Part shown: in pieces, positions 1,054 to 37,974 of the stretch
Layout: the number at the start of each line of letters is the position of its first letter
Position numbering within the stretch: position 1 is the first letter of the stretch
From: a virus
Taxonomy: Duplodnaviria > Heunggongvirae > Uroviricota > Caudoviricetes
Length of the DNA stretch: 37,974 bases
Reading direction: 5' to 3' (one strand)
IMG/VR virus record: IMGVR_UViG_2548877011_000015
Notes under the pieces: generated by a model
What the model saw: only the letters and a program-made list of their open reading frames with translations
Databases searched by the model: none
Told to the model about the DNA's origin: nothing
Position numbers and translations under genes: made by a program

Positions 1054-1239
1054 AAAAAATGCCCTCCAATAGAGAGCATTTTTACTGTATGTATAACCAG
1101 TGTCAATGTATGAAATCCTGCGACCATACATCTCACTGAAGCCATAATGAAGTTGGCTATTTTTTGCTATGTGAGTATGTGACTTTTGCGGTTAGCCTGC
1201 GGCTCATTGTTATATTAGGCGCAGATATAAAAGCAAAAT

Positions 1240-2016: not shown

Positions 2017-2022
2017 GGTCAC

Positions 2023-19955: not shown

Positions 19956-20158
19956 TGAAAGTGCGTGCGCATCAATATGACACGGTGGACGCACTTTGCT
20001 GGCGTCATTACGGGCGCACGCAGGGTGTCACGGAGCAGGTACTGAAGGCAAATCCGGGGCTTGCCGAATATGGCCCCTTTTTACCTCACGGGCTGCAGGT
20101 GGAGCTGCCGGACATTCCGACCACCACCACCGTGCAGACCGTCCAGCTATGGGACTGA
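19955..20158 (+). CDS. X: tail protein X (P2 gpX-like)
   Basis: 67 aa; MKVRAHQYDTVDALCWRHYGRTQGVTEQVLKANPGLAEYGPFLPHGLQVELPDI is collinear with P2 gpX. Confidence 0.85.
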   Translation: MKVRAHQYDTVDALCWRHYGRTQGVTEQVLKANPGLAEYGPFLPHGLQVELPDIPTTTTVQTVQLWD

Positions 20159-20161
20159 ATT

Positions 20162-20377
20162 ATGACGCTTGAGCGAATCAGCGCCTTTATCACGTACTGC
20201 ATCGCCGTTGTGCTGGCCTGGCTGGGCGATTTGTCCATCAAGGATGCCTCAACGCTGGGCGGCCTGATGATTGGTGTGCTGATGCTGGCTATCAACTGGT
20301 ACTACAAACACAAAGCCTACCAGCTTCTGCGCGACGGGCAGATCTCGCGGGAGGACTATGAATCCATCAATCGTTAA
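20162..20377 (+). CDS. holin
   Basis: 71 aa with two hydrophobic transmembrane segments and charged C-terminus, directly upstream of the lysozyme gene. Confidence 0.65.
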   Translation: MTLERISAFITYCIAVVLAWLGDLSIKDASTLGGLMIGVLMLAINWYYKHKAYQLLRDGQISREDYESINR

Positions 20378-20870
20378 ACGCTGCCTTGTCGGGGGCGTGC
20401 TGGCTATTGCTGCCACGCTGCCGGGTTTTCAGCAGCTTCACACCTCCGTGGAGGGGCTGAAACTGATTGCCGATTACGAAGGCTGTCGTCTGCAGCCGTA
20501 TCAGTGCAGCGCGGGTGTCTGGACCGACGGCATTGGTAATACATCGGGCGTCATTCCCGGCAAAACAATCACGGAACGACAGGCAGCAGAAGGGCTGATC
20601 TCCAACGTGCTGCGTGTGGAGCGGGCACTGGAAAGGTGTGTGAAGCAACAGCCACCACAGAAGGTGTATGACGCTACGGTGTCGTTTGCCTTCAACGTGG
20701 GGACGGGCAATGCCTGTAGTTCCACGCTGGTGAAATTGCTCAATCAGCGGCGCTGGGCGGATGCGTGCCGACAGTTGCCGCGCTGGGTTTATGTAAAAGG
20801 TGTGTTTAATCAGGGGCTGGATAACCGCCGTGCGCGGGAGATGGCTTGGTGTTTACAGGGAGCAAACTGA
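20358..20870 (+). CDS. endolysin, lysozyme type, with N-terminal SAR-like hydrophobic segment
   Basis: 170 aa; EGLKLIADYEGCRLQPYQCSAGVWTDGIGNT carries the E...D...T catalytic spacing of T4/P21-type lysozymes; N-terminal VGGVLAIAATLPGF is a weakly hydrophobic signal-anchor-like segment. Confidence 0.8.
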   Translation: MNPSIVKRCLVGGVLAIAATLPGFQQLHTSVEGLKLIADYEGCRLQPYQCSAGVWTDGIGNTSGVIPGKTITERQAAEGLISNVLRVERALERCVKQQPPQKVYDATVSFAFNVGTGNACSSTLVKLLNQRRWADACRQLPRWVYVKGVFNQGLDNRRAREMAWCLQGAN

Positions 20871-20871
20871 A

Positions 20872-21249
20872 ATGAAAAAGAAATTAATCAGCGGACTGTT
20901 TCTGATGTTATGGATGGCGCTGTTAGTCGCAGCAATGGTGTATCCGCAGGGGATTTTTCCGGTACTGGCAGTGTCCGGCGTTTGGGTAGCCTGTTTGCTG
21001 ACATGGGCGGTAATTCCTGTAGCACTGGCTGCGTTAATTAAGAATGGCCCGCTCTGGCAGGAGTTAAGGGCATCTTTGCTGAAGACAATTACCCGAAAAG
21101 AAAACGTATTTATCACCTGGGTGATGCGATTGCTGATTGTTGTAAGTCTCGCTTGGACGGGGTGGGCTATTACCCTGGTCTTTTATCTACTGACCGTTAT
21201 TGCCTTCTGGATCACCCGTAATCAGATGGCGCAACAGGTAGCAGCATGA
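20872..21249 (+). CDS. lysA: LysA-like membrane protein (lysis timing)
   Basis: 125 aa with several transmembrane segments, P2 lysA position. Confidence 0.6.
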   Translation: MKKKLISGLFLMLWMALLVAAMVYPQGIFPVLAVSGVWVACLLTWAVIPVALAALIKNGPLWQELRASLLKTITRKENVFITWVMRLLIVVSLAWTGWAITLVFYLLTVIAFWITRNQMAQQVAA

Positions 21250-21674
21250 ACCGGTTGCTGCTGGTTGTGCTGGCGTTATTACTGGCGGCGCTGGGCTGGC
21301 AGACGTGGCGGCTGGCTGATGCCAGCCAGACCATTAGCACGCAGGCAGACGAGCTGCAGAGCAAAAGCCAGGCACTGGCAAAGAGCAACAGCCAGCTTAT
21401 CAGCCTGTCCATTCTGACTGAAACCAATAACCGGGAGCAGGCGCGGCTCTATGCCGAAGCAGAACAGACCAGCGCGCTGCTGAGACAACGACAACACCGG
21501 ATCGAGGAACTGAAACGTGAGAACGAGGATTTACGCCGCTGGGCTGATACTCCTTTGCCTGCTGACATTATCCGGCTGCGGGAACGTCCGACGCTCACCG
21601 GAGGTGCAGCTTACCGTCAGTGGTTGTCCGCGAGTGACGCCGTGTCGGCTGGATCAGGCAGCGCCGCGCACTAA
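21246..21674 (+). CDS. lysB: i-spanin (LysB / Rz-like)
   Basis: 142 aa; N-terminal TM anchor MNRLLLVVLALLLAALGW then coiled-coil region; P2 lysB position. Confidence 0.75.
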   Translation: MNRLLLVVLALLLAALGWQTWRLADASQTISTQADELQSKSQALAKSNSQLISLSILTETNNREQARLYAEAEQTSALLRQRQHRIEELKRENEDLRRWADTPLPADIIRLRERPTLTGGAAYRQWLSASDAVSAGSGSAAH

Positions 21675-21807
21675 CGGTGATCTGAACGCGTTGCTGGATG
21701 AAACGGAGGCCGCCTGGGCGGTCTGTGCAGACAAAGTGGACATGATTATTGCGTGTCAGGAGCGAAACAGTGAACAAACCACAATCCCTGCGCCACGCCC
21801 TAAATAA
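21517..21807 (+). CDS. lysC: o-spanin lipoprotein (LysC / Rz1-like), embedded out of frame in lysB
   Basis: GTG start at 21517; signal peptide with lipobox LSGC; overlaps the lysB 3' end in a different frame and runs into R. Confidence 0.65.
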   Translation: MRTRIYAAGLILLCLLTLSGCGNVRRSPEVQLTVSGCPRVTPCRLDQAAPRTNGDLNALLDETEAAWAVCADKVDMIIACQERNSEQTTIPAPRPK

Positions 21808-22201
21808 AGCGGTGCCTTATGTCCGCAATAACCCGGAAAAACTGCATCTGTTTGTGGATAACGGTTCGCTGGTTGCCACGGGGGCCAGCTCCATGTCGTG
21901 GGAGTACCGTTACACCCTGAACGCGGTGATTGAGGATTTCAGCGGCGACCAGAATCTGTTGATGGCCCCGGTTTTACTGTGGCTGAGGGATAACCAGCCC
22001 GTTGCCATCAATAACCCGGCGTTACGGGAAAAACAATTCACCTTTGAGGTGGATATTCTGCGCAACGATGTCTGTGATATCAGCTTGAACCTGCAACTGA
22101 CGGAACGTGTGCTGGTCAGCACTGACGGCAGTGTGTCGAGCGTTGAAGCTGTAGCGGAACCCGATGAACCTGAAGAAATGTGGACGGTGAAACGTGGCTG
22201 A
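21770..22201 (+). CDS. R: tail completion protein R (P2 gpR-like)
   Basis: GTG at 21770 with AGGAG 8 nt upstream; track ORF 21749..22201; P2 R position and size. Confidence 0.7.
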   Translation: MNKPQSLRHALNKAVPYVRNNPEKLHLFVDNGSLVATGASSMSWEYRYTLNAVIEDFSGDQNLLMAPVLLWLRDNQPVAINNPALREKQFTFEVDILRNDVCDISLNLQLTERVLVSTDGSVSSVEAVAEPDEPEEMWTVKRG

Positions 22202-22646
22202 ACTGCAGAAAGTGGACGACTGGCTGAGTGCCTTGCTGGCGAATCTGGAACCAGCCGCCAGAAGCCGCATGATGCGCCAGCTGGCGCAGGAACTGCGCCG
22301 GACACAGCAGCAGAATATCAGGATGCAGCGCAACCCTGACGGCAGCAGCTATGAACCGCGACGGGTAACAGCACGAAGTAAAAAAGGGCGCATCAAACGT
22401 CAGATGTTTGCAAAGCTGCGCACCACAAAATACCTGAAAACCGCCGCCAGCGCGGATTCTGCCAGCGTACAGTTTGAAGGTAAGGTGCAGCGCATTGCCC
22501 GCGTTCATCATTACGGCCTGCGCGATCGCGTCAGTCCAAAGGGGGGAGTCATTAAGTATCCATCCCGAAAATTGCTGGGTTTAAATGAACATACTGAAAA
22601 TGAAGTAAGAGATTTACTTTTAAAGTATTTTTTGATGAAAAATTAG
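22194..22646 (+). CDS. S: tail completion protein S (P2 gpS-like)
   Basis: 150 aa, GTG start overlapping R stop; C-terminal YPSRKLLG motif as I recall it from gpS-family proteins. Confidence 0.7.
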   Translation: MAELQKVDDWLSALLANLEPAARSRMMRQLAQELRRTQQQNIRMQRNPDGSSYEPRRVTARSKKGRIKRQMFAKLRTTKYLKTAASADSASVQFEGKVQRIARVHHYGLRDRVSPKGGVIKYPSRKLLGLNEHTENEVRDLLLKYFLMKN

Positions 22647-25107: not shown

Positions 25108-25705
25108 TCTGCTGCCACCGGGTTCAACACCACTGGAGCGCCGACTGGCGCAAACCTGCAGCGGGATTTCTGATCTGCAGGTGCCGCTTCGTGACTTGTG
25201 GAATCCGGCAACCTGTCCGGTCAGTTTCCTGCCTTATCTCGCCTGGGCGTTCTCTGTAGATCGCTGGGACGAGGGCTGGACAGAAAGCGTCAAGCGCCAG
25301 GTGGTGAAGGATGCTTTTTATATTCATCAGCATAAAGGGACCACCAGTGCCGTGCGGCGGGTGGTGGAGCCGTTCGGCTTTCTGATCCGCATTATTGAGT
25401 GGTGGCAGACCGGAGAGGCACCGGGCACGTTTCGCCTGGATATCGGCGTGCAGGACCAGGGTATCACTGAAGATACCTATCTGGAACTTGAGCGACTGAT
25501 AAGCGATGCCAAACCATGTAGCCGCCACATGATCGGCATATCCATCAATCTGCAGACCAGCGGCCCGCATTGGGTGGGAGCCGCCAGCTATCTTGGCGAA
25601 GAAATCACGATCTATCCGTATATCAACGAAACGATTATTTCCGGTGGCACCGCGCATGAAGGCGGGGCGGTCCATGTTATTGACACAATGAGAGTGAATC
25701 CATGA
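25100..25705 (+). CDS. I: baseplate/tail protein I
   Basis: 201 aa, overlaps J stop; P2 gpI position. Confidence 0.75.
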   Translation: MNSLLPPGSTPLERRLAQTCSGISDLQVPLRDLWNPATCPVSFLPYLAWAFSVDRWDEGWTESVKRQVVKDAFYIHQHKGTTSAVRRVVEPFGFLIRIIEWWQTGEAPGTFRLDIGVQDQGITEDTYLELERLISDAKPCSRHMIGISINLQTSGPHWVGAASYLGEEITIYPYINETIISGGTAHEGGAVHVIDTMRVNP

Positions 25706-27453
25706 GCACAAAATTTTATACCCTGCTGACGGATATTGGCGCGGCGAAACTTGCCAGCGCCACCGCGCTCGGTGTGCCGCTAAAAATTACCCATATGGCG
25801 GTGGGCGATGGCGGCGGAGTATTGCCAACGCCGGACGCAAAGCAGACGGCACTGGTAAATGAGAAACGCCGGGCTGCGCTGAATATGCTTTATATCGACC
25901 CGCAGAACAGCAGCCAGATTATTGCTGAACAGGTGATCCCTGAAAACGAGGGCGGTTGGTGGATACGTGAAGTGGGCTTGTTTGATGAGTCCGGGGCATT
26001 GATTGCCGTGGGTAACTGCCCGGAAAGCTATAAGCCGCAACTGGCTGAAGGCAGTGGGCGTACCCAGACCGTGCGCATGGTGCTGATTACCAGCAGTACG
26101 GACAATATCATCCTGAAAATCGACCCTGCTGTAGTGCTGGCAACCCGCAAGTATGTGGATGACAAAATATCAGAGCACGAACAGTCACGACGTCACCCGG
26201 ACGCCTCGCTGACCGCAAAAGGTTTTACTCAGTTAAGCAGTGCGACCAACAGTGAATCCGAAATACTGGCCGCAACACCGAAGGCTGTGAAGGCTGCATA
26301 TGATCTTGCAGCAGGTAAAGCATCCGCCAGTCACACACACCCGTGGAATCAGATAACGGATGTGCCTGCAGCTTCACTGACGGTAAAAGGCACCGTGCAA
26401 CTCAGCAGCGCCACTAACAGCACGTCAGAAATGCAGGCTGCCACACCAAAGGCAGTGAAGGCGGCATATGACCTTGCAGCAGGTAAGGCACCTGTCAGTC
26501 ACACGCACCCGTGGAGCCAGATAACAGATGTGCCTGCAGCTTCACTGACGGTAAAAGGCACCGTGCAACTCAGCAGCGCTACTAACAGCACGTCAGAAAC
26601 GCAGGCTGCCACACCAAAAGCCGTGAAGGCTGTATATGACCTTGCCAATGGAAAACAACCTGCCGACGCCACACTGACCGCACTGGCAGGCCTTGCCACT
26701 GCGGCAGACAAACTTCCGTATTTTACGGGGAATGATACAGCCAGCCTGACAACCCTGACTAACGTTGGACGGAATATTCTGGATAAAGCAAGCACACAGG
26801 CGGTTATTCAATATCTTGGTCTGAGCGATGCAAGTGGATACGTTGGACGCTGGCTGAATACCCGGGTTTTCACCTCATCAGGTACGTACACCACGACGCC
26901 AGGAACAAAACGGATTAGGGTCACAATAACGGGCGGCGGTGGCGGAGGGGGCGGCTGCAAGGCTATATCCAATAATGAAACGTTTTTCGGTGCTGGCGGC
27001 GGGGCAGGTGGGACAGTAATCACCACGCTGATCCTGACGAAGGATAGTTATCCTGTCACTATCGGCGCAGGTGGGGCCGGCGGCGTTAGTGCGACGAACG
27101 GCCTCAAGGGCGGTGATAGCTCGTTCGGATCGGTAATAGCCCCTGGTGGTGAAGGTGGTGGAAAATCAGGAGTCACAAACACGAACGGTGGTAACGGCGG
27201 TGTGCCAAGTACTGGCGGTATCAACATCATTGGTGGAAATGGAGGCGACGGTCAGTCCGGAAATATCGGCGTCAGCGGTGAAGGCGGAACATCGCACTGG
27301 GGTGGCGGTGGACGCGCAGGCGCTGGCGGTGGTGTTAGTGGTAAGGCATATGGTTCAGGTGGCGGTGGCGCATACGATGCCGGTTATAGCGGAACCAGTA
27401 TGACAGGCGGGAAAGGTGCCGCTGGGATTTGTATTATCGAGGAGTTTGCATAA
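25702..27453 (+). CDS. H: tail fiber protein H with internal tandem repeats and Gly-rich C-terminal domain
   Basis: 583 aa; conserved P2-type N-terminus; three ~56-aa tail-fibre repeats (SLTVKGTVQLSSATNS...AATPKAVKAAYDLA...HTHPW); C-terminal ~170 aa is 35-40% Gly. Confidence 0.85.
   Translation: MSTKFYTLLTDIGAAKLASATALGVPLKITHMAVGDGGGVLPTPDAKQTALVNEKRRAALNMLYIDPQNSSQIIAEQVIPENEGGWWIREVGLFDESGALIAVGNCPESYKPQLAEGSGRTQTVRMVLITSSTDNIILKIDPAVVLATRKYVDDKISEHEQSRRHPDASLTAKGFTQLSSATNSESEILAATPKAVKAAYDLAAGKASASHTHPWNQITDVPAASLTVKGTVQLSSATNSTSEMQAATPKAVKAAYDLAAGKAPVSHTHPWSQITDVPAASLTVKGTVQLSSATNSTSETQAATPKAVKAVYDLANGKQPADATLTALAGLATAADKLPYFTGNDTASLTTLTNVGRNILDKASTQAVIQYLGLSDASGYVGRWLNTRVFTSSGTYTTTPGTKRIRVTITGGGGGGGGCKAISNNETFFGAGGGAGGTVITTLILTKDSYPVTIGAGGAGGVSATNGLKGGDSSFGSVIAPGGEGGGKSGVTNTNGGNGGVPSTGGINIIGGNGGDGQSGNIGVSGEGGTSHWGGGGRAGAGGGVSGKAYGSGGGGAYDAGYSGTSMTGGKGAAGICIIEEFA
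26203..26658 (+). repeat. 168-bp tandem repeat (about 2.7 copies) inside the tail fiber gene
   Basis: Copies start near 26203, 26371 and 26539; copies 2 and 3 are nearly identical at the DNA level. Confidence 0.8.
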
Positions 27454-27972: not shown

Positions 27973-29145
27973 ATGGCTCAGGATTACCACCACGGAGTGC
28001 GCGTTGTTGAAGTCAACGAAGGCACTCGATCCATTACCACGGTGAGCACCGCCATCGTGGGCATGGTCTGCACGGGCGATGATGCCGATGCAAAAATGTT
28101 CCCTCTTAATAAACCCGTGCTGATCACTGATGTGCTTACTGCCAGCGGTAAGGCGGGTGAATCCGGTACGCTGGCCCGTTCGCTGGATGCCATCGCTGAC
28201 CAGGCAAAACCCGTGACCGTTGTTGTGCGTGTGCCGCAGGGTGAAACGGAAGAAGAAACCACGACCAATATCATCGGCGCAGTGACTGCTGAAGGTAAAA
28301 AAACTGGTATGAAAGCCCTGTTATCTGCCCAGTCACAGCTCGGTGTTAAACCGCGCATTCTCGGCGTGCCGGGGCACGATAATAAAGCCGTTGCTACTGA
28401 GTTGCTGGGCGTGGCGCAAAGCCTGCGTGGGTTTGCTTACCTGTCAGCGTATGGCTGCAAGACGGTGCAGGAGGCGATCACTTACCGTAAAAACTTCAGT
28501 CAGCGTGAAGGGATGCTGATTTGGCCTGACTTTACTGGCTGGGACACGGTGCTGAATGCCGACGCAACGGCATATGCCACCGCCCGTGCGCTTGGTCTGC
28601 GTGCCAAAATTGATGAGCAGACAGGGTGGCACAAAAGCCTGTCCAACGTGGGCGTGAACGGTGTCACCGGAATTTCTGCTGATGTGTTCTGGGATCTGCA
28701 GGACCCGGCAACTGATGCGGGACTACTTAACCAGAACGATGTTACCACACTTATCCGCAAAGACGGCTTTCGCTTCTGGGGTTCCCGCTGCCTGAGTGAT
28801 GACCCACTCTTTGCCTTCGAAAACTACACCCGCACGGCGCAGGTGCTGATGGACACGATGGCAGAAGCGCCAATGTGGGCGGTCGACAAACCGCTGAATC
28901 CGTCGCTGGCCCGCGACATTATCGAAGGTATCCGCGCCAAAATGCGCAGCCTGATCAGTCAGGGCTATCTCATTGGTGGCGATTGCTGGCTGGATGAGTC
29001 GGTGAACGACAAAGACACTCTGAAAGCTGGAAAACTCACCATCGACTACGACTACACACCAGTGCCGCCACTTGAAAACCTGATGCTGCGTCAGCGCATC
29101 ACCGATCAGTACCTGGTGAATTTCTCCAGCCAGGTCAGCGCGTAA
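27973..29145 (+). CDS. FI: tail sheath protein FI
   Basis: 390 aa starting [11 protein letters not shown]..., P2 FI size and position. Confidence 0.85.
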
Positions 29146-29154
29146 GGGGACAAC

Positions 29155-29670
29155 ATGGCTTTACCACGCAAATTAAAACACCTCAACCTGTTTAACGACG
29201 GGAACAACTGGCAGGGGATCGTTGAGTCGCTGACGCTGCCGAAATTCACCCGCAAATATGAGAAGTATCGCGGTGGCGGAATGCCGGGTGCAGTGGATGT
29301 GGATTTGGGGCTGGATGATAGTGCGCTGGACACAGAATTTTCCATTGGTGGTACTGAACTGCTGCTGTTTAAGCAGATGGGCAAAGTCACGGTGGATGGT
29401 ATCCAGTTGCGCTTTACCGGCTCTATTCAGCGTGACGATACCGGGGAAGTGCAGGCCGTGGAGCTTGTGGTGCGTGGACGTCACAAAGAAGTGGATTCCG
29501 GCGAGTGGAAGACGGGCGAAAGCAACACCACCAAAGTGACCAGTACCAACAGCTACGCGAAGCTGACTATCAATGGTGAGGTGCTCTATGAAGTGGACCT
29601 TATCAACATGGTGGAAATTGTGGACGGCGTGGACCTGATGGAAGCGCACCGCAACGCCCTCGGCCTCTGA
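29155..29670 (+). CDS. FII: tail tube protein FII
   Basis: 171 aa, follows sheath gene. Confidence 0.85.
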   Translation: MALPRKLKHLNLFNDGNNWQGIVESLTLPKFTRKYEKYRGGGMPGAVDVDLGLDDSALDTEFSIGGTELLLFKQMGKVTVDGIQLRFTGSIQRDDTGEVQAVELVVRGRHKEVDSGEWKTGESNTTKVTSTNSYAKLTINGEVLYEVDLINMVEIVDGVDLMEAHRNALGL

Positions 29671-29724: not shown

Positions 29725-30027
29725 ATGAGCGATAAGCAGACTGAAAAGACTATTCAACTGGATACCCCTATCAAGCGCGGTAAAACGGAAATCACCGAAA
29801 TTGTGCTGCGTAAACCGCAGTCCGGTGCACTGCGCGGTACACGCCTGCAGGCTATTATGGATATGGATGTGAACGCGATGATGACCGTGATCCCCCGCAT
29901 CTCCAGCCCGGCACTGACTGCACAGGAAATTGCAGAGATGGACCCGGCAGATCTCACCGCTATGTCGGTTGAGGTTGTCACTTTTTTGTTGAAGAAGTCG
30001 GTACTTGCCGGTTTACCGACAGCCTGA
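29725..30027 (+). CDS. E: tail assembly chaperone E
   Basis: 100 aa upstream of the tape measure gene; contains slippery T6G at 29982-29988. Confidence 0.8.
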   Translation: MSDKQTEKTIQLDTPIKRGKTEITEIVLRKPQSGALRGTRLQAIMDMDVNAMMTVIPRISSPALTAQEIAEMDPADLTAMSVEVVTFLLKKSVLAGLPTA

Positions 30028-30161
30028 CGGTTGACGATCTGGTGGCTGATATCGCCACCATCTTTCACTGGCCGCCATCCGTTACTGACGTTATGCCGCT
30101 GACCGAAGTGCTGGAATGGCGGTATAAAGCGATTCAGAGAAGCGGGGCCAACGATGAGTGA
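29725..30161 (+). CDS. E': E+E' fusion chaperone produced by programmed -1 frameshift
   Basis: Slippery heptamer t_ttt_ttg at 29982-29988; the -1 frame is open from there to TGA at 30159-30161 and encodes ...HWPPSVTDVMPLTEVLEWRYKAIQRSGANDE; stop overlaps the T start. Confidence 0.7.
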
Positions 30162-33100
30162 TAATAACCTGCGCCTGCAGGTCATTCTTAATGCGGTTGA
30201 CAAACTCACCCGCCCATTCCGTGCTGCACAGGCCAGTTCGAAAGAGCTGGCTGGCGCAATCAGAAACTCCCGTGACGCATTAAAGCAACTCAATCAGGCG
30301 GGTAACAGCTTGGAAAAATTTCGCAAGCTGCAGGCCGATAACAAGAAGTTAGGCGACAGGCTGAACTATGCCAGACAGAAGGCAAATTTGCTTAGTTCTG
30401 AGCTGGAAGCGATGGAACAACCATCACAACGGCACCTTGTGGCTTTAGGTCGGCAAACGCTGGCAGTCCAACGCCTGGAAGAACAACAAAAATATTTGCA
30501 GAAGCAAACGGCGCTTGTGCGTGCAGAACTGTACCGGACGGGAATTTCTGCGAAAGATGATGCGGGAGCAACTGCCCGTTTAGCCCGTGAAACATCACGT
30601 TATAACCAGGAATTGTCGAAACAGGAGGCGCGGCTGAAGCGACTGGGTGAAGCTCAGCGCAGGATGAATGCGGCGCGTGCCAGTTATGCCCGTTCGCTGG
30701 AGGTGCGCGATCGTATTGCAGGAGCCGGAGCCACTACCACGGCTGCAGGGCTGGCAATGGGGACGCCAGTGATGGCGGCAGTAAAAAGCTATACCAGCAT
30801 GGAAGATGCCATGAAAGGTGTGGCAAAGCAGGTCAATGGTCTGCGTGACGATAATGGAAACCGTACTGCACGTTTTTATGAAATGCAGGATGCCATCAAG
30901 GCTGCCAGCGAACAGTTGCCGATGGAAAACGGTGCGGTGGACTTCGCTGCACTGGTTGAAGGTGGTGCGCGCATGAACGTCGCAGACCCTGACGACAGCT
31001 GGGAAGACCAGAAACGTGACCTGCTGGCCTTCGCCAGTACGGCAGCAAAGGCGGCAACAGCCTTTGAGCTGCCAGCGGATGAACTGTCAGAAAGTCTGGG
31101 GAAAATCGCCCAGCTCTACAAAATACCTACCCGCAATATTGAACAGCTCGGCGATGCGCTGAACTATCTGGATGATAACGCCATGTCGAAAGGGGCGGAC
31201 ATCATTGATGTGATGCAACGTCTGGGCGGTGTGGCTGACCGTCTGGATTATAGTAAAGCGGCGGCACTGGGTTCCACCTTTCTGACACTGGGCGCTGCGC
31301 CGGAGGTTGCAGCCAGTGCAGCAAACGCGATGGTGCGTGAATTGTCCATTGCCACCATGCAAAGCAAGAGTTTCTTTGAAGGGATGAATCTGCTGAAACT
31401 CAATCCTGAAGTGATTGAAAAGCAGATGACGAAGGATGCGATGGGAACTATCCAGCGTGTGCTGGAGAAGGTGAACGCACTGCCGCAGGACAAGCGTCTG
31501 TCTGCCATGACCATGTTGTTTGGTAAAGAGTTTGGCGATGACGCGGCGAAACTGGCAAACAACCTGCCGGAACTACAGCGCCAGCTAAAACTGACAGCGG
31601 GCAATGATGCGCTCGGTTCCATGCAGAAAGAATCCGACATCAACAAGGACTCACTTTCTGCTCAGTGGTTGCTGGTTAAAACCGGAGCGCAGAATACCTT
31701 CAGCAGCCTGGGAGAAACGCTGTGCCAGCCGCTGATGGATATTCTGTACACGGTGAAAAGCGTTACGGGAGCGTTGCGTCGCTGGGTGGAAGCTAACCCG
31801 GAACTGACGGGCACACTGATGAAAGTAGCCGCTATTGTGGCTGCGGTTACCGTAGGCCTCGGCACCTTGGCTGTGGCGCTGGCTGCAGTGCTGGGGCCGC
31901 TGGCAGTCATCCGTCTGGGATTCTCTGTGCTGGGCATCAAAACGTTACCTTCCATTACGGCAGCAGTAACACGAACTAGCAGCGCGTTGTCCTGGCTGGC
32001 TGGCGCTCCACTGGCAGTGCTGCGACGCGGGCTTGCTTCATCGGGTAACGCAGCGGGTTTACTTACTGCGCCGTTGTCGTCTTTGCGCCGTACGGCATCA
32101 CTGACGGGAAATGTCCTGAAAACTGTAGCAGGTGCGCCGGTTGCACTATTGCGGTCTGGATTATCCGCTTTACATGCTGTTGCTGTGATGTTTATGAATC
32201 CTCTGGCGGTACTGCGCGGTGGACTGGCTGCCGTAGGCGCGGTGCTTCGTGTGCTTGCATCTGGTCCGCTGGCGATGCTGCGCGTTGCCCTGTATGCCAT
32301 ATCTGGTCTGTTAGGTGCTCTGCTCAGTCCGATAGGTCTTGTGGTTACTGCACTGGCGGGCGTGGCGCTGGTTGTCTGGAAATACTGGCAACCCATCACC
32401 GCATTTCTCGGTGGCGTGGTGGAAGGATTCAAAGCGGCGGCAGGTCCCATCAGTGCTGCATTCGAACCACTTAAGCCTGTGTTTCAGTGGATTGGCGACA
32501 AAGTACAGGCGCTGTGGGGCTGGTTTACTGATCTGCTGACGCCCGTTAAGTCGACCTCTGCCGAACTGCAGAGTGCAGCGGCAATGGGGCGGCGATTCGG
32601 GGAGGCACTGGCGGAAGGGCTGAATATGGTCATGCATCCGCTGGACTCCCTGAAATCCGGCGTTTCCTGGTTGCTGGAGAAGCTCGGCATTGTCAGTAAA
32701 GAGGCCGCAAAGGCAAAACTGCCGGAAAGCGTGACGCGTCAGCAACCTGCGACGGTGAATGCAGACGGTAAAGTGATGATGCCATCGGGTGGTTTTCCAT
32801 CATGGGGATATGGCTTTGCGGGGATGTATGACAGCGGCGGGTATATCCCGCGCGGGCAGTTTGGCATCGTCGGTGAAAACGGGCCGGAAATTGTTAACGG
32901 CCCGGCAAATGTGACCAGCCGGAGAAATACAGCTGCACTGGCTGCCGTTGTTGCCGGAATGATGGGCGTTGCTGCCGCGCCTGCAGAGCTTCCACCGTTG
33001 CATCCTTTGGCACTTCCCGCGAAAGGCGGCGAAGCGATGGTGAGTCGTGCAGCCACTGTGCCGCCCGTTCACCGGATTGAGGCACCGACGCAGATCATCA

Positions 33101-33231
33101 TTCAGACGCAGCTAGGACAAAGTGCGCAGGATATTGCGCGGGAGGTGGCACGCCAGCTTGATGAACGTGAACGCAGGCTGAAGGCAAAAGCCAGGAGTAA
33201 CTACAGCGATCAGGGGGGATACGACGCATGA
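30154..33231 (+). CDS. T: tail tape measure protein T
   Basis: 1025 aa; long Ala/Leu-rich helical protein in the canonical position. Confidence 0.85.
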   Translation: MSDNNLRLQVILNAVDKLTRPFRAAQASSKELAGAIRNSRDALKQLNQAGNSLEKFRKLQADNKKLGDRLNYARQKANLLSSELEAMEQPSQRHLVALGRQTLAVQRLEEQQKYLQKQTALVRAELYRTGISAKDDAGATARLARETSRYNQELSKQEARLKRLGEAQRRMNAARASYARSLEVRDRIAGAGATTTAAGLAMGTPVMAAVKSYTSMEDAMKGVAKQVNGLRDDNGNRTARFYEMQDAIKAASEQLPMENGAVDFAALVEGGARMNVADPDDSWEDQKRDLLAFASTAAKAATAFELPADELSESLGKIAQLYKIPTRNIEQLGDALNYLDDNAMSKGADIIDVMQRLGGVADRLDYSKAAALGSTFLTLGAAPEVAASAANAMVRELSIATMQSKSFFEGMNLLKLNPEVIEKQMTKDAMGTIQRVLEKVNALPQDKRLSAMTMLFGKEFGDDAAKLANNLPELQRQLKLTAGNDALGSMQKESDINKDSLSAQWLLVKTGAQNTFSSLGETLCQPLMDILYTVKSVTGALRRWVEANPELTGTLMKVAAIVAAVTVGLGTLAVALAAVLGPLAVIRLGFSVLGIKTLPSITAAVTRTSSALSWLAGAPLAVLRRGLASSGNAAGLLTAPLSSLRRTASLTGNVLKTVAGAPVALLRSGLSALHAVAVMFMNPLAVLRGGLAAVGAVLRVLASGPLAMLRVALYAISGLLGALLSPIGLVVTALAGVALVVWKYWQPITAFLGGVVEGFKAAAGPISAAFEPLKPVFQWIGDKVQALWGWFTDLLTPVKSTSAELQSAAAMGRRFGEALAEGLNMVMHPLDSLKSGVSWLLEKLGIVSKEAAKAKLPESVTRQQPATVNADGKVMMPSGGFPSWGYGFAGMYDSGGYIPRGQFGIVGENGPEIVNGPANVTSRRNTAALAAVVAGMMGVAAAPAELPPLHPLALPAKGGEAMVSRAATVPPVHRIEAPTQIIIQTQLGQSAQDIAREVARQLDERERRLKAKARSNYSDQGGYDA

Positions 33232-33713
33232 TGATGGTGCTGGGATTGTACGTGTTTATGCTGCGCACCGTTCCGTATCAGGAACTGCAGTATCAACGCA
33301 GCTGGCGACATGCGGCAAACAGCCGGGTAAACCGTCGTCCGTCCACGCAGTTTCTGGGACCGGACAACGACATGCTGACGCTTTCCGGTGTTCTTATGCC
33401 GGAGATAACAGGCGGCAGGCTGTCGTTGCTGGCTCTGGAGCAGATGGCAGAACAGGGGAAAGCATGGCCCCTGATTGAAGGTAGCGGCACGATTTACGGC
33501 ATGTATGTGATTGAGGGACTGAATCAGACTAAAACGGAGTTTTTCCGCGACGGTATGCCGCGCCGGATTGAGTTCACCCTGTCGCTCAAACGGGTGGATG
33601 AATCCCTGTCCGATATGTTCGGTGATCTCAATTCGCAGCTGAATAAGCTGCAGGACACGGCAACATCTGCATTAAGCGATATCAGTAAAACTGTGGGAGG
33701 GCTGTTGTCGTGA
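33228..33713 (+). CDS. U: tail protein U
   Basis: 161 aa, ATGA overlap with T. Confidence 0.8.
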   Translation: MMMVLGLYVFMLRTVPYQELQYQRSWRHAANSRVNRRPSTQFLGPDNDMLTLSGVLMPEITGGRLSLLALEQMAEQGKAWPLIEGSGTIYGMYVIEGLNQTKTEFFRDGMPRRIEFTLSLKRVDESLSDMFGDLNSQLNKLQDTATSALSDISKTVGGLLS

Positions 33714-34810
33714 ATTTCAGCTCTGAACTGCTTAACAAAGGTAACAAAACTCCCGCATTCAGCATCAGTATTGAGGGCAGGGATATCACCACTGTGCTGG
33801 ATAACCGCCTGATGAGGCTGACGCTGACGGATAACCGGGGCTTTGAAGCGGACCAGCTTGATCTGGAGCTGGACGACGCCGATGGAAAAATAGCGCTGCC
33901 GCGCCGTGGTGCTGTCATTACGCTGGCGCTGGGCTGGAAGGGGCAGCCGCTTTTCCCGAAAGGGGCATTCACGGTGGACGAGATTGAACACACTGGCGCA
34001 CCGGACCGCCTGACTATCCGGGCGCGAAGTGCTGATTTTCGGGAAACGCTGAATACCCGCCGTGAAAAATCGTGGCATAAGACCACCGTCGGGGAAGTGG
34101 TGAAGGAAATAGCCTCGCGGCATAAGCTGAAGATGGCACTGGGTAAAGACCTGTCGGATAAGCTCGTAGAGCATATAGACCAGACTAATGAGAGTGACGG
34201 TAGTTTTCTGATGCGGCTGGCGCGACAGTACGGTGCCATCGCGTCGGTGAAAAATGGCAATCTGTTATTCATCCGGCAGGGGCAGGGCAAAAGCGCCACT
34301 GGTAAACCACTGCCGGTGATCACTATCACACGCAAGGACGGCGACAGTCACCGCTTTACCCTGGCAGATCGCGGAGCCTACACGGGCGTAATTGCCAGTT
34401 GGTTGCATACCCGCGAACCCGCGAAGAAAGAAAGCACCACGGTGAAGCGTAAGCGCAGGACTAAGAAGCAGAAGAAAGAGCCGGAAGCGAAGCAGGGCGA
34501 TTACCTGGTGGGTACGGATGAAAACGTGCTGGTACTTAATCGCACCTATGCTAATCGGAGTAACGCCGAACGGGCAGCGAAAATGCAGTGGGAACGCCTG
34601 CAACGCGGCGTTGCGTCATTCTCGCTACAACTGGCGGAAGGGCGGGCAGATCTCTACACGGAAATGCCAGTGAAAGTCAGTGGCTTTAAACAGCCGATAG
34701 ATGATGCGGAATGGACCATTACGACTCTGACGCATACCGTCAGCCCGGATAACGGTTTTACGACCAGTCTGGAGCTTGAAGTGAGGATTGATGATTTCGA
34801 AATGGAATGA
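33710..34810 (+). CDS. D: tail protein D (late control D)
   Basis: 366 aa, GTG start overlapping U stop; last tail gene before ogr. Confidence 0.8.
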   Translation: MNFSSELLNKGNKTPAFSISIEGRDITTVLDNRLMRLTLTDNRGFEADQLDLELDDADGKIALPRRGAVITLALGWKGQPLFPKGAFTVDEIEHTGAPDRLTIRARSADFRETLNTRREKSWHKTTVGEVVKEIASRHKLKMALGKDLSDKLVEHIDQTNESDGSFLMRLARQYGAIASVKNGNLLFIRQGQGKSATGKPLPVITITRKDGDSHRFTLADRGAYTGVIASWLHTREPAKKESTTVKRKRRTKKQKKEPEAKQGDYLVGTDENVLVLNRTYANRSNAERAAKMQWERLQRGVASFSLQLAEGRADLYTEMPVKVSGFKQPIDDAEWTITTLTHTVSPDNGFTTSLELEVRIDDFEME

Positions 34811-34900
34811 TTCTTCGCAATGGAGAACTTTTAAGTTTGTAAAATAGAATAATGCGGTATCATTATTGTGAATTTAGCAAAAATGGGGAGAGCTCGAAAA

Positions 34901-35119
34901 ATGATGATTTGCCCACTGTGTGGAAGTGCCGCCCATACTCGCAGCAGTTTTCAGGTATCTTCATTGACCAAAGAGCGTTACAACCAGTGCCAGAACATTA
35001 ACTGCAGCCATACTTTTGTTACCCATGAAACTTTTGTTCGTTCGATTGCAACGCCAAAAGAGTCAAATCCGGTTCAGCCGCATCCAATGAAATCAGGACA
35101 GGTGGCGCTCTCTCTTTGA
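34901..35119 (+). CDS. ogr: Ogr/Delta-family zinc-finger late gene activator
   Basis: 72 aa from ATG at 34901; MMICPLCGSAAHTRSS...KERYNQCQNINCSHTF carries the CxxC...CxxxxC finger and resembles P2 Ogr as I recall it. Confidence 0.85.
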   Translation: MMICPLCGSAAHTRSSFQVSSLTKERYNQCQNINCSHTFVTHETFVRSIATPKESNPVQPHPMKSGQVALSL

Positions 35120-35120
35120 C

Positions 35121-35142
35121 GCTGCCGCCATTTTGTCGCCAT
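35121..35142. repeat. candidate attR core (direct repeat gctgccgccaTtttgtcgcca)
   Basis: 21/22 identical to 20..41; lies immediately after ogr, where P2-type att sites are located. Confidence 0.5.
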
Positions 35143-35198
35143 CGTTAAAAAACAGTGCTTCTAACATCATGATTTTAAACAGCTTAAATTTCAGGCAA

Positions 35199-35242
35199 CA
35201 AAAAACCCATCAACCTTGAACCGAAATGGCGGGGTTGATGGG
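35199..35242 (-). terminator. candidate rho-independent terminator for ybjL
   Basis: Stem cccatcaacc / ggttgatggg (35206-35215 and 35233-35242) with an A7 run on the + strand, giving a U tract after the stem on the minus strand; loop is long (17 nt). Confidence 0.4.
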
Positions 35243-35354
35243 CTCCACAAAATGGGGACATCAAAGAAAAGCAGTGGCACTAATTAAGACTGATGCCCTG
35301 CGGAAAAGTTCTGCGGTTGTGCAAAAAAATTTCATTTTCAGGGCAACTTCAGTT

Positions 35355-37040
35355 TTATCCTAATCCTGGCCATACCATGACGATGATTGTCCCTGCCAGC
35401 GTCAGCAGGACGTTGGCGATTGCGTAGGTGCCCGCATAGCCCAGCGCAGGGATGTTACTGCGAGCTGTATCACTGATGATCTCCATTGCCGGCGCGCAGG
35501 TGCGTGCGCCCATCATTGCGCCGAACAACAGTGCGCGGTTCATTCGCAATACATAAGCACCGAACAAGAAACAGATAACCACGGGCACAAGACTGACAAT
35601 TAATCCGGCAATCAACATCTGACCGCCAATCGCGCCCAGGCCGTTATTAATACCGCTACCGGCGCTCAGACCAACGCCTGCCATAAACACCATCAAGCCG
35701 AACTCTTTCACCATGCTTAATGCACCTTGCGGAATGTAACCGAAGGTCGGGTGGTTAGCACGCATAAAGCCCAGCATAATTCCGGCGAATAACAACCCGG
35801 CAGCGTTCCCCATGCCGAAACTGAATGTGCTGAACTGGAAGGTGATCATCCCGATCATCAGCCCAATAACAAAGAAGGCGCAAAATGCCAGCAGGTCAGT
35901 GACCTGGCTGTGAATCGAGATAAAGCCGATGCGATCGGCGATGGTTTTTACGCGACGGGCATCACCGCTGACTTGTAAAACGTCACCTTTGTTAAGCACG
36001 ACGTTGTCATCTATCGGCATCTCAATCTGGCTACGAATGACGCGGTTAAGGAAGCAACCGTGATCGGTCAACTTCAGTTGTGCGAGACGTTTACCTACAG
36101 CGTTATGGTTTTTAACGACCACTTCTTCAGTGACGATACGCATGTCGAGAAGGTCACGATCGAAAACTTCTTTACCGTTACGGAAGCTGGGATCGAGTCG
36201 GGCATGGGCGTCGGGATAGCCTACCAACGCTATTTCATCGCCCATTTGTAGCACGGCATCACCGTCTGGATTTGCCAGAATCCCGTTACGTCGAATACGT
36301 TCAATGTAGCAGCCGGTTTGTCGATAAATACCCAGTTCACGCAGATTTTTGCCGTCGGTCCAGGCCACCAGCTCCGGGCCGACGCGATAGGCGCGGATCA
36401 CCGGTAAATAAACCTTACGGTTGGCATCAGTGTCCAGGCCACGTTCGCGGGCGATTTGCTGGGCGCTGGTCTGTAAGTCCTGATGCTGCAATTTCGGCAA
36501 GTAACGCGCACCAACAATCAAACTCACCAGACCGATTAAATAGGTTAAGGCATATCCGAGGCTCAGATTATCCAGTGCCAGTGAGAGCTGCCTGCTTTCC
36601 ATACCGGAATGACGCAGTGTATCGCCAGCACCGACCAGAACCGGTGTCGACGTCATAGAGCCTGCTAACATACCGGCCGTCAGGCCAATATCCCAGCCAA
36701 ACAGCTTACCTAACCCTAAGGCGATCACCAGCGCACTGCCAACCATCACCAGTGCTAACATTAGGTAATTTTTCCCATCGCGAAAAAAAATGGAAAAAAA
36801 GTTCGGTCCGGCTTCGACCCCGACGCAGAAAATAAACAGCATAAAGCCAAGATTAAGCGCATCGGTGTTAATGCTGAAATGTTGTTGGCCTAATAACAGC
36901 GATACGACTAAAACGCCAATGGAATTACCCAGTTGGATCGAACCAAGTCGTAACTTTCCGAGACATAGCCCAAGCGCGAGGACCACAAATAATAACAGAA
37001 TGTAATTCCCATTTAACAATTCGGCGACGTTTATATTCAC
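35355..37040 (-). CDS. ybjL: AAE-family putative transporter YbjL (host)
   Basis: 561-aa multi-pass membrane protein; N-terminus [33 protein letters not shown] recognised as E. coli YbjL; normal host GC content. Confidence 0.8.
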
Positions 37041-37309
37041 GGAGGCTAACTTCTTGTTTACTAGTAAGCTGTTGAAAGAAATGGTAATTTACGATAATGT
37101 TTTTTACCAGAATTCAGGGCGCAGATTCATTCAGCGCACCTAAACGATAGTAAAGTAACAATATATTTTACTAGTGTAATCACATTAGGTATCAACGGCT
37201 ATATGAATTGCGTTGGCCTATATTAGCATGGAATGCGAAGCGGCTTTATCTTACTGAACGCCACACTGGCGAAAAATGTGTTCGATAGACGCAGTGTCAG
37301 GAGGAACGA

Positions 37310-37687
37310 GTGAAACATAAACAACGTTGGGCGGGGGCAATCTGCTGTTTTGTCCTCTTCATTGTGGTGTGCCTTTTTCTGGCGACGCACATGAAAGGCG
37401 CTTTTCGGGCTGCCGGGCATCCTGAAATCGGCTTGCTGTTTTTCATTCTTCCTGGAGCAGTTGCCAGTTTCTTTTCACAGCGTAGAGAAGTCCTGAAACC
37501 TCTATTTGGCGCAATGCTGGCGGCACCCTGTTCAATGCTTATTATGCGGCTGTTTTTTTCACCGACCCGCTCATTCTGGCAAGAGCTGGCATGGTTACTA
37601 AGCGCGGTGTTCTGGTGTGCGCTGGGGGCACTGTGTTTCTTATTTATCAGTAGTTTGTTTAAACCACAGCACAGAAAAAATCAGTAA
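37310..37687 (+). CDS. ybjM: inner membrane protein YbjM (host)
   Basis: 125-aa membrane protein with GTG start at 37310; position between ybjL and grxA as in E. coli. Confidence 0.7.
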   Translation: MKHKQRWAGAICCFVLFIVVCLFLATHMKGAFRAAGHPEIGLLFFILPGAVASFFSQRREVLKPLFGAMLAAPCSMLIMRLFFSPTRSFWQELAWLLSAVFWCALGALCFLFISSLFKPQHRKNQ

Positions 37688-37716
37688 AGCCCTCAACGCG
37701 AGGGCTTGTCAGACGA

Positions 37717-37974
37717 TCAGGCGTCCAGATTTTCTTTCACCCATGCAGCAAAATCGGTATAGCCGCCGATATGTTGCTGATCGACAAAAATCTGCGGCAC
37801 GGTTTCTACGGGTTTACCTGCCTTTTGTTGTAGATCTTCTTTAGTGATCCCTTCCGCACGAATATCTACATACTGATACTGAAAATCATCGCGTTCATTG
37901 CTCAATTTCTCAGCCAGATCTTTTGCACGCACACAGTAAGGGCAACCCGGACGACCAAAAATAACGGTTTGCAT
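37717..37974 (-). CDS. grxA: glutaredoxin 1 (host)
   Basis: 85 aa MQTVIFGRPGCPYCVRAKDLAEKL... with CPYC active site; ATG at 37972-37974. Confidence 0.9.
   Translation of the reverse strand: MQTVIFGRPGCPYCVRAKDLAEKLSNERDDFQYQYVDIRAEGITKEDLQQKAGKPVETVPQIFVDQQHIGGYTDFAAWVKENLDA

What the first reader, a model, noticed from the sequence alone, without database searches (positions are those of the whole stretch)
29982..30161. Programmed -1 frameshift site for the E/E' tail chaperone
The T6G slippery heptamer at 29982-29988 is followed by a -1 frame that stays open until a TGA overlapping the start of T. This is the conserved tail-chaperone frameshift arrangement of P2, expected but clearly visible here.
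Basis: partly seen in the sequence, partly recalled or inferred. Interest (0 to 1): 0.2.

Follow-up and report, generated by a model that had tools for sequence, protein, structure and literature searches.

The report
P2-type tail chaperone frameshift site
This is the well-known ribosome "slip" site that lets a P2-like prophage of E. coli make two tail-assembly helper proteins (E and the longer E+E') from one start codon, so the finding is real but ordinary.

Summary
Observation and interpretation both hold. T TTT TTG at 29982-29988 lies in the X_XXY_YYZ phase of a 100-codon gene (29725-30027, Pfam Phage_TAC_7). That gene sits between the tail tube gene and the tape measure gene of a P2-like prophage in an E. 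coli chromosome.

The -1 frame opens three codons before the heptamer. It runs 57 sense codons to TGA 30159-30161, overlapping the tape-measure ATG (30154) by 8 nt. This -1 extension matches Pfam Phage_P2_GpE end to end (65.5 bits, E 3e-18).

P2's own record annotates a -1 frameshift at the same heptamer, in the same phase, with the same 8-nt overlap. In 269 related loci (201 distinct sequences, 12 lineages down to about 37% identity) E' is always in the -1 frame. An in-phase slippery heptamer always lies in the two-frame overlap, against local codon preference.

No downstream RNA structure was found. An upstream SD-like GAGG is mostly explained by the conserved peptide.

The rivals are a separately started 39-aa E' (as RefSeq annotates it), transcriptional slippage and chance; all are poorly supported. 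The same DNA (≥95% identity) occurs in 986 of 5,426 complete E. coli genomes.

Already known; low interest. Expression was not tested here.

The parts
29155..29670 (+). Tail tube gene (FII homologue), upstream neighbour
   Evidence: PF04985 Phage_tube, 200 bits
29714..29717 (+). AGGA Shine-Dalgarno-like motif, 7 nt before the E start codon
   Evidence: Read directly from the sequence
29725..30027 (+). Gene E: 100-aa tail assembly chaperone made by standard decoding
   Evidence: ORF and translation. PF10109 Phage_TAC_7, 67.5 bits. phrog_103 'tail protein', 150 bits
29970..29972 (+). Last stop codon (TGA) in the -1 frame before the slip site; the -1 ORF opens at 29973
   Evidence: Translation of the -1 frame
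29971..29974 (+). [quoted passage not shown]
   Evidence: Within the 6-17 nt range used by Sharma et al. 2014 (PMC4066793). Present in 10 of 12 lineages, but peptide-preserving codon shuffles expect 7.5 of 12, P = 0.05
29982..29988 (+). Slippery heptamer T_TTT_TTG (0-frame codons acT TTT TTG = Thr-Phe-Leu)
   Evidence: Invariant in the alignment with P2, RE-2010 and p13P477T-2. An in-phase heptamer is present in 269 of 269 related loci
29988..30161 (+). E' : -1-frame extension of 57 sense codons (VEEVGTCRF...SGANDE) plus TGA. With E codons 1-88 it gives the 145-aa E+E' product, join(29725..29988, 29988..30161)
   Evidence: PF06528 Phage_P2_GpE covers fusion residues 107-143, 65.5 bits. phrog_1756 covers residues 85-145, 79.6 bits. 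Variability is dominated by third positions of the -1 frame
29989..30027 (+). Dual-coding zone: the C-terminal tail of E (0 frame) overlaps the linker of E' (-1 frame)
30042..30161 (+). 39-aa ORF starting at GTG that RefSeq/PGAP calls a separate 'GpE family phage tail protein'. This is an annotation surrogate for E', and no SD-like motif precedes it
   Evidence: Annotation of identical or near-identical DNA. Sequence 30020-30041 read directly
30154..33231 (+). Tape measure gene T (1025 aa); its first 8 nt overlap the end of E'
   Evidence: PF10145 PhageMin_Tail, 67.9 bits; ORF list

Best explanation
The site is a programmed -1 ribosomal frameshift of the P2 E/E+E' type.

Most ribosomes translating gene E (29725-30027) terminate at TGA 30025-30027 and release the 100-aa chaperone E.

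A minority slip while tRNA-Phe occupies UUU (29983-29985) in the P site and tRNA-Leu occupies UUG (29986-29988) in the A site. Both tRNAs move back one base and re-pair with UUU UUU (29982-29987). Decoding then resumes at GUU (29988-29990) in the -1 frame and continues to TGA 30159-30161. The result is a 145-aa E+E' protein that shares its first 88 residues with E and carries a 57-residue E' tail.

By analogy with P2 E/E+E' and lambda gpG/gpGT, the two proteins are made at a fixed, unequal ratio. They would act as non-structural chaperones that coat the tape measure protein T and recruit the tube protein, so that a tail of the right length is built.

What is shown here:
- the heptamer, its phase and the open -1 frame;
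- the family membership of both halves;
- the gene neighbourhood;
- conservation of the arrangement across relatives.

What is inferred:
- that slippage actually occurs in this prophage, and at what efficiency;
- the exact junction residue;
- the binding partners.
For: Anatomy:
- The heptamer is T_TTT_TTG in X_XXY_YYZ phase, 13 codons before the E stop.
- The -1 frame opens 9 nt upstream of it and stays open for 57 codons.
- It is the only in-phase canonical heptamer in the 55-nt two-frame overlap.

Both halves are recognised families:
- PF10109 (67 bits) covers residues 9-88.
- PF06528 (65.5 bits, full length 1-37/37) lies in the -1 part.
- phrog_1756 aligns from residue 85, across the junction.

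Synteny is sheath - tube - E/E' - tape measure - U - D.

P2 precedent:
- The P2 record NC_001895 carries a joined 'E+E'' CDS noted as '-1 frameshift; essential tail protein', plus a frameshift-site feature next to the same heptamer.
- P2 has GGT TTT TTG in the same phase and the same ATGAGTAA/ATGAGTGA overlap with T.
- Papers citing Christie et al. 2002 state that P2 shifts at TTTTTTG to give 91-aa E and 142-aa E+E', and that E' lacks a ribosome-binding site (PMC3091744; PMC3931495).

Conservation:
- tblastn of the fused product finds 425 phage records. In 388 of them it covers ≥80% of the query, as two pieces in different frames in every listed row.
- In 269 fetched loci (201 distinct sequences, 12 clusters at 70% identity, from Escherichia to Burkholderia, Ralstonia, Vibrio, Mannheimia, Shewanella, Acidovorax and Zymomonas) E' is always in the -1 frame.
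- Every locus has an in-phase heptamer in the overlap. It is TTTTTTG in most, TTTTTTC/A/T in a few, and GGGAAAG in Mannheimia.

Nucleotide-level selection: elsewhere in these E genes TTT is 18% of Phe codons, TTG is 6.7% of Leu codons, and T is 12.5% of four-fold third positions. At the site these are essentially fixed.

E' is coding in the -1 frame: variable sites fall mostly at -1-frame third positions (12 vs 7 and 3 here; 15 vs 4 and 3 in the P2 group).
Against: - Nothing here shows that the product is made from this prophage; the evidence is comparative.
- No stimulatory downstream structure was found. The 100 nt downstream fold with z = -1.1, and the consensus fold of 10 lineages has 0 pairs.
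- U_UUU_UUG is not among the high-efficiency motifs listed for E. coli by Sharma et al. 2014, so efficiency is probably low. That fits a chaperone needed in small amounts, but it remains an inference.
- RefSeq annotates E' as an independent 39-aa gene.
- The structure model of the fusion was too poor to use (pLDDT 51).
- No solved structure shares detectable sequence similarity. The chaperone mechanism therefore rests on analogy.
Confidence: 0.93

Rival explanations
1. E' is a separate small gene. Ribosomes start independently at GTG 30042 and make a 39-aa 'GpE family' protein, and no frameshift is needed.
For: - RefSeq/PGAP and several GenBank phage records annotate exactly this ORF.
- The Pfam PF06528 model begins at this codon.
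- P2 and several relatives have ATG or GTG at the aligned position.
Against: [quoted passage not shown]
- The aligned codon is Ala in Ralstonia RSY1, Trp in Vibrio MAR, and Ile in Mannheimia and Acidovorax, so a start there is not conserved.
- Residues upstream of it are conserved in the -1 frame ([VI]-[DEN]-[DE] and the A/E-E-x-G after the slip site), and phrog_1756 aligns from fusion residue 85.
- The -1 frame is never interrupted between heptamer and domain in 269 of 269 loci. Upstream of the heptamer it closes within 0-30 nt in the AT-richer lineages.
- This model does not explain why TTT TTG is fixed against codon preference.
- For P2, secondary sources report that E' lacks a ribosome-binding site and is expressed as E+E'.
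Confidence: 0.03
2. The frame change is made by RNA polymerase, not the ribosome. Slippage on the T6 run adds one U to a fraction of transcripts, which then encode E+E' in a single frame.
For: - The site is a homopolymer run.
- DNA alleles with T7 give a single 145-aa ORF, so one extra U would produce the right protein.
Against: - The run is only 6 nt. Productive bacterial transcriptional slippage is described on runs of about 9 A/T, matching the 9-10 bp RNA-DNA hybrid (PMC5009743).
- The codon phase of the heptamer is conserved in all 269 loci, which matters for tRNA re-pairing but not for a polymerase.
- The Mannheimia lineage uses G_GGA_AAG, which is not a homopolymer and can only work by tandem tRNA slippage.
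Confidence: 0.03
3. The heptamer and the open -1 frame are fortuitous, or they are a relic in a decaying prophage that no longer makes tails.
For: - TTTTTTG occurs 25 times in the window.
- By my arithmetic, a 57-codon open frame has a chance probability of only about 0.06.
- Expression of this prophage is untested.
Against: - The -1 ORF hits PF06528 at E 3e-18.
- The arrangement is conserved over 12 lineages.
- All neighbouring tail genes are intact full-length ORFs with strong family matches.
- Identical DNA is found in many E. coli genomes.
Confidence: 0.01

Closest known systems
Bacteriophage P2 genes E and E+E' (FETUD tail operon; Christie et al. 2002, J Bacteriol 184:6522, cited through PMC3091744 and PMC3931495)
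   Same: - Same heptamer T_TTT_TTG in the same codon phase.
- The -1 ORF opens 9 nt before the heptamer in both.
- Same 57-residue E' extension with the conserved ...VDDL.AD.A.IFHWPPS...L.E...WR.KA..RSG... core.
- Same 8-nt overlap of the E' stop with the T start.
- Same position between FII and T.
   Different: - Only about 48% amino-acid identity.
- E is 100 aa against 91, and E+E' is 145 aa against 142.
- The codon before the slip is ACT (Thr) instead of GGT (Gly).
- The E tail after the slip is 12 residues against 6.
- The tape measure is 1025 aa here; P2 T spans 19850-22297.
Fels-2 / RE-2010 / SEN8 group (Felsduovirus) and Klebsiella phage 4LV2017 / E. coli element p13P477T-2
   Same: - Nearest relatives at DNA level: 85-86% for the Felsduovirus group, and 96.5-97.8% for 4LV2017 and p13P477T-2.
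- Identical heptamer and geometry.
- The RE-2010 and SEN8 records already label 'tail protein E''.
   Different: These records annotate E' as a separate 39-aa CDS rather than as a joined frameshift product.
Phage lambda gpG / gpGT tail assembly chaperones
   Same: - Same logic: two proteins from one start through a low-level -1 frameshift near the end of the gene that precedes the tape measure gene.
- The ratio is crucial for tail assembly and neither product is in the virion (PMC5009743).
   Different: - No sequence similarity is reported between the P2 and lambda chaperone genes (PMC3931495).
- Lambda is a siphovirus and uses a different slippery sequence.
- The binding roles of E and E' are inferred, not shown.
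E. coli dnaX and IS3/IS911-type -1 frameshift signals
   Same: - Tandem-slippage heptamer in a bacterial host.
- An SD-like element lies within the 6-17 nt range upstream.
   Different: - No downstream hairpin or pseudoknot.
- The SD-like element is not clearly beyond what the conserved peptide would give.
- The motif is U_UUU_UUG rather than A_AAA_AAG.

Membership tests
P2-type E / E+E' tail chaperone pair with -1 frameshift (Peduoviridae) | Located between the tail tube gene (FII) and the tape measure gene (T) | tested here: met
   PF04985 at 29155-29670 and PF10145 at 30154-33231 flank the locus. Sheath lies upstream, U and D downstream.
P2-type E / E+E' tail chaperone pair with -1 frameshift (Peduoviridae) | The 0-frame product belongs to the E / Mu gp41 chaperone family | tested here: met
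   PF10109 Phage_TAC_7, 67.5 bits against a cut-off of 25; phrog_103, 150 bits.
P2-type E / E+E' tail chaperone pair with -1 frameshift (Peduoviridae) | The -1-frame extension encodes the GpE (E') domain | tested here: met
   PF06528, 65.5 bits against a cut-off of 23, profile positions 1-37 of 37; phrog_1756 and phrog_6416.
P2-type E / E+E' tail chaperone pair with -1 frameshift (Peduoviridae) | In-phase X_XXY_YYZ heptamer (T_TTT_TTG in P2) inside the overlap of the two frames, at the position homologous to the P2 site | tested here: met
   It is the only such heptamer in the overlap.
P2-type E / E+E' tail chaperone pair with -1 frameshift (Peduoviridae) | E' has no ribosome-binding site of its own | tested here: met
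   No SD-like motif in 30020-30041, before the first -1-frame start codon GTG 30042. The same is stated for P2 in PMC3931495.
P2-type E / E+E' tail chaperone pair with -1 frameshift (Peduoviridae) | Both E and E+E' are actually produced and both are needed for tail assembly | not testable with these tools
   Needs protein detection and genetics. The P2 record calls both 'essential tail protein'.
Lambda gpG/gpGT-like tail assembly chaperones (functional class) | Helical 'spiral' chaperone fold; binding to the tape measure (shared part) and to the tube protein (frameshift part) | tested here: inconclusive
   The AlphaFold2 model of the fusion has mean pLDDT 51, so no fold search was run. There is no sequence match to any PDB chain. 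Binding cannot be tested here.
Stimulated bacterial -1 frameshift signals (dnaX / IS3 type) | Downstream hairpin or pseudoknot a few nt after the heptamer | tested here: not met
   z = -1.1 for the 100 nt downstream. RNAalifold on 10 lineages gives 0 pairs. The literature reports none for P2 or KS5/KS14/KL3.
Stimulated bacterial -1 frameshift signals (dnaX / IS3 type) | Conserved SD-like sequence 6-17 nt upstream of the motif | tested here: inconclusive
   GAGG is 9 nt upstream here, and 10 of 12 lineages have such a motif against a 16% positional background. Codon shuffles that keep the peptide expect 7.5 of 12, P = 0.05.

The most novel reading that the evidence does not exclude
The SD-like purine motif is GAGG at 29971-29974 here, AAGGTGG in P2, and GGAG, GAGG or GGNGG in 10 of 12 lineages. 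It lies 6-17 nt upstream of the slip site and could be a conserved rRNA-pairing stimulator that tunes the E : E+E' ratio. P2-type sites are otherwise described as lacking stimulators. Conservation of the peptide G-G / (E/K)-V upstream of F-L would then partly reflect selection on the RNA.
Probability: 0.12. Interest if true: 0.25.

Novelty: already known. Interest (0 to 1): 0.08.

Why it matters
It matters mainly for annotation. RefSeq and many phage records split this locus into a 'phage tail assembly protein' and a free-standing 39-aa 'GpE family' gene. The biologically meaningful product is probably the 145-aa frameshift fusion. The locus at ≥95% identity is present in about 18% of complete E. 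coli genomes. A correct join(29725..29988, 29988..30161) annotation would remove a spurious mini-gene and restore a missing protein in many genomes. Nothing here opens a new question about recoding or tail assembly.

Tried and rejected
1. Downstream stimulatory RNA. Folding 29989-30088 gives z = -1.1. A larger window (29950-30060) gives z = -2.6, but only because the U-run pairs with GAAGAAG and a hairpin sits about 50 nt downstream, too far to act. The consensus fold of 10 lineages has 0 pairs. Rejected.

2. Upstream SD-like stimulator. It looked striking at first: 10 of 12 lineages against a 16% background, nominal P = 4e-7. Once the encoded peptide is held fixed, 7.5 of 12 are expected and P = 0.05. 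Kept only as a low-probability hint.

3. Structure. The AlphaFold2 model of the fused protein, built on a shallow alignment, has pLDDT 51 and is unusable, so no fold search was run. The PDB sequence search found nothing.

4. NCBIfam. There was no hit for E, the fusion or the 39-aa ORF.

5. Single-ORF 145-aa database proteins. I tested whether they are genuine in-frame E+E' genes. P0001 comes from T7 alleles in four read-set assemblies. Others carry frame changes at scattered positions. They are most simply assembly errors or pseudogenes, and they were not used as evidence.

6. Substitution pattern between the E stop and GTG 30042. The aim was to separate frameshift from independent initiation. 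Only 4 codons are available, too few to decide.

7. Christie et al. 2002 (PMC135442) is not held in the library. Its content is cited second-hand.

8. The first related-loci scan returned only 100%-identical loci. Diversity came from further scans seeded with P2, KL3, Vibrio and Mannheimia E proteins, and from phage records.

Full report
**What is at the coordinates**

The window reads ...GTC ACT TTT TTG TTG AAG... The six T's are at 29982-29987 and the G is at 29988. A 100-codon ORF runs from ATG 29725 to TGA 30025-30027. Base 29982 is the third position of its Thr codon, so the heptamer is T_TTT_TTG in the canonical X_XXY_YYZ phase.

The -1 frame carries a TGA at 29970-29972. It is then open to TGA 30159-30161. 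The next gene starts at ATG 30154, so the end of the -1 ORF and the start of that gene overlap by 8 nt (ATGAGTGA).

**Is it more than chance?**

The bare heptamer is common. There are 25 copies in the window against 12.5 expected from shuffles. For each copy I checked the phase, the surrounding ORF and the -1 extension.

Only the copy at 29982 combines three things: a real gene in phase, proximity to the gene's 3' end, and a long -1 extension.

Far stronger is that the -1 extension is a known protein domain. The conceptual fusion is E residues 1-88 plus 57 residues from the -1 frame, 145 aa in all.
- It hits PF10109 (Phage_TAC_7, 'tail assembly chaperone proteins E, or 41 or 14') over residues 9-88.
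- It hits PF06528 (Phage_P2_GpE) over residues 107-143, at 65.5 bits and E 2.9e-18, covering the whole model.
- PHROGs gives phrog_103 for the E part. phrog_1756 aligns from residue 85 to 145, across the junction.

**Context**

- The neighbours are sheath (27973-29145), tube (29155-29670), tape measure (30154-33231), U (33228-33713) and D (33710-34810). All have strong Pfam matches.
- The window as a whole is a P2-like prophage. It has an integrase at 1-1131 (-), a CI-type repressor at 1447-2022 (-) and replication gene A at 5573-7996.
- It lies in an E. coli chromosome next to the RybB sRNA gene, ybjL and ybjM.

**Comparison with P2**

The P2 RefSeq record annotates three features:
- E;
- a two-piece joined CDS 'E+E'', noted as 'shares amino terminus with gpE; -1 frameshift; essential tail protein';
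- a feature 'site of -1 translational frameshift'.

The P2 sequence there is GGT TTT TTG in the same phase. Its -1 frame also opens 9 nt upstream, and E' ends in ATGAGTAA across the T start. In a four-way alignment the heptamer columns are invariant while flanking synonymous positions vary.

Two open papers that cite Christie et al. 2002 state the following (PMC3091744; PMC3931495):
- P2 shifts at TTTTTTG to give 91-aa E and 142-aa E+E';
- E' lacks a ribosome-binding site;
- no downstream hairpin is present.

The primary paper is not held in the library.

**Conservation in relatives**

tblastn of the fused product finds 425 phage records. In 388 it covers at least 80% of the query. In every listed row of that kind the match is two pieces, that is, two reading frames.

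I fetched 269 loci: phage records from nine genera, plus IMG/VR contigs seeded with the window, P2, KL3, Vibrio MAR and Mannheimia E proteins. They comprise 201 distinct E-E' sequences in 12 clusters at 70% identity, down to about 37% identity to the window.

In all 269 loci E' is in the -1 frame and an in-phase X_XXY_YYZ heptamer lies in the overlap.
- TTTTTTG occurs in most, including Shewanella, Ralstonia, Burkholderia and Acidovorax.
- TTTTTTC occurs in Vibrio, TTTTTTT in Zymomonas and TTTTTTA in a few.
- GGGAAAG occurs in Mannheimia.

The site is kept against codon preference. Elsewhere in the same E genes TTT is 18% of Phe codons, TTG is 6.7% of Leu codons, and T is 12.5% of four-fold third positions. 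These sequences are related, so no formal probability is attached to this contrast.

Within four clusters, variable sites in E' fall mainly on -1-frame third positions, as expected for a region translated in that frame.

The 8-nt overlap with T is kept in the enterobacterial and Shewanella lineages but not in all others.

**Mechanism**

The best explanation is simultaneous slippage of P-site tRNA-Phe and A-site tRNA-Leu from UUU UUG to UUU UUU, followed by -1-frame decoding from GUU 29988.

No downstream stimulator was detected.

[quoted passage not shown] 2014. Ten of 12 lineages have such a motif. Synonymous-codon shuffles that keep the peptide expect 7.5 of 12 (P = 0.05), so this is at most a weak hint.

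U_UUU_UUG is not among the high-efficiency E. coli motifs listed in that study. That fits a minor product. In lambda the analogous gpG:gpGT ratio is about 30:1 and is crucial for tail assembly (PMC5009743).

The functional roles are inferred from that analogy and from the P2 annotation. On that view the shared part binds the tape measure and E' recruits the tube protein. They were not tested. The structure model was too poor to use and no PDB relative exists by sequence.

**Rivals**

1. Independent initiation of a 39-aa E' at GTG 30042, as annotated in RefSeq and several phage records.
   - No SD-like motif lies upstream of it.
   - The aligned codon is Ala, Trp or Ile in four lineages.
   - Conserved -1-frame residues lie upstream of it.
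   - The -1 frame is uninterrupted from the heptamer in every locus.
   - The model leaves the fixed TTT TTG unexplained.
   - The short stretch between the E stop and this GTG is too small for a substitution test.

2. Transcriptional slippage.
   - A 6-nt run is short compared with the ~9-nt runs and the 9-10 bp hybrid described for bacteria.
   - Codon phase is conserved.
   - The Mannheimia motif is not a homopolymer.

3. Chance. This is excluded by the family match and the conservation.

**Verdict**

Observation confirmed and interpretation supported. This is a textbook feature of P2-like phages.

The same DNA at ≥95% identity is in 986 of 5,426 complete E. coli genomes, with 100%-identical copies among them.

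Novelty: already known. Interest is low. The only practical value is that common annotation splits the locus into two genes and omits the fusion product.

Noticed in passing
window 35197-35275 (-), with 34810-37974 as context: A full-length RybB sRNA gene (Rfam RF00110, 105 bits) lies immediately beyond the prophage's right end, after D and an ogr/Delta-like gene. It is followed by ybjL, ybjM and grxA of E. coli. The prophage therefore appears to be inserted next to, or at the 3' end of, rybB. The attachment site was not mapped, because the left junction lies outside the window.
   Followed up: partly
window 11271-12920 (+) and 12922-13785 (+): A two-gene cargo pair lies in the variable region between replication gene A and the portal gene. 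It matches the PADLOC candidate defence system PDC-M01 (PDC-M01A 186 bits, an AAA_21/PtuA-like ATPase; PDC-M01B 115 bits). Nearby ORFs 9071-9937 (+) and 10187-10840 (-) have no Pfam match. The latter gives a weak RTasHEPN hit (E 1e-5).
   Followed up: partly
window 30042-30161 (+); L002 1188-1307; L274 618-737: RefSeq/PGAP and several GenBank phage records annotate E' as a free-standing 39-aa 'GpE family phage tail protein' starting at GTG. They omit the E+E' fusion. Pfam PF06528 begins at exactly that codon, so it was probably built from such ORF calls.
   Followed up: yes
L270-L273 (Logan assemblies), gene at 601-1038; proteins P0001-P0037: The protein database holds single-ORF 145-aa 'E+E'' proteins. 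P0001 comes from alleles with seven T's instead of six, in four independent read-set assemblies. Others have frame changes at scattered upstream or downstream positions. They are most likely assembly errors or pseudogenes, but a real T6/T7 length polymorphism was not excluded. None of the 269 IMG/VR and phage loci had it.
   Followed up: partly
window 22628-22634 (+): A second in-phase T_TTT_TTG lies 5 codons before the stop of ORF 22194-22646. That ORF is a tail-completion-region gene by position. The -1 frame closes after 11 codons, so this copy is probably incidental.
   Followed up: no
window 25702-27453 (+): The tail-fibre-like ORF (583 aa) contains three tandem copies of a ~40-residue unit (...LTVKGTVQLSSATNSTSE.QAATPKAVKA.YDLA.GK...). 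It also has a glycine-rich C-terminal region with a G7 run.
   Followed up: no
protein P0062: A 211-aa database protein joins the E chaperone domain (PF10109) to a GpU domain (PF06995). It looks like a prophage remnant in which the tape measure gene has been deleted.
   Followed up: no
L087 352-822 (Ralstonia phage RSY1, NC_025115): The record lists one unjoined 471-nt 'tail protein' CDS spanning E and E', although the DNA has the usual T6G site with E' in the -1 frame. This is probably a frameshift CDS whose join was lost in the feature table.
   Followed up: no
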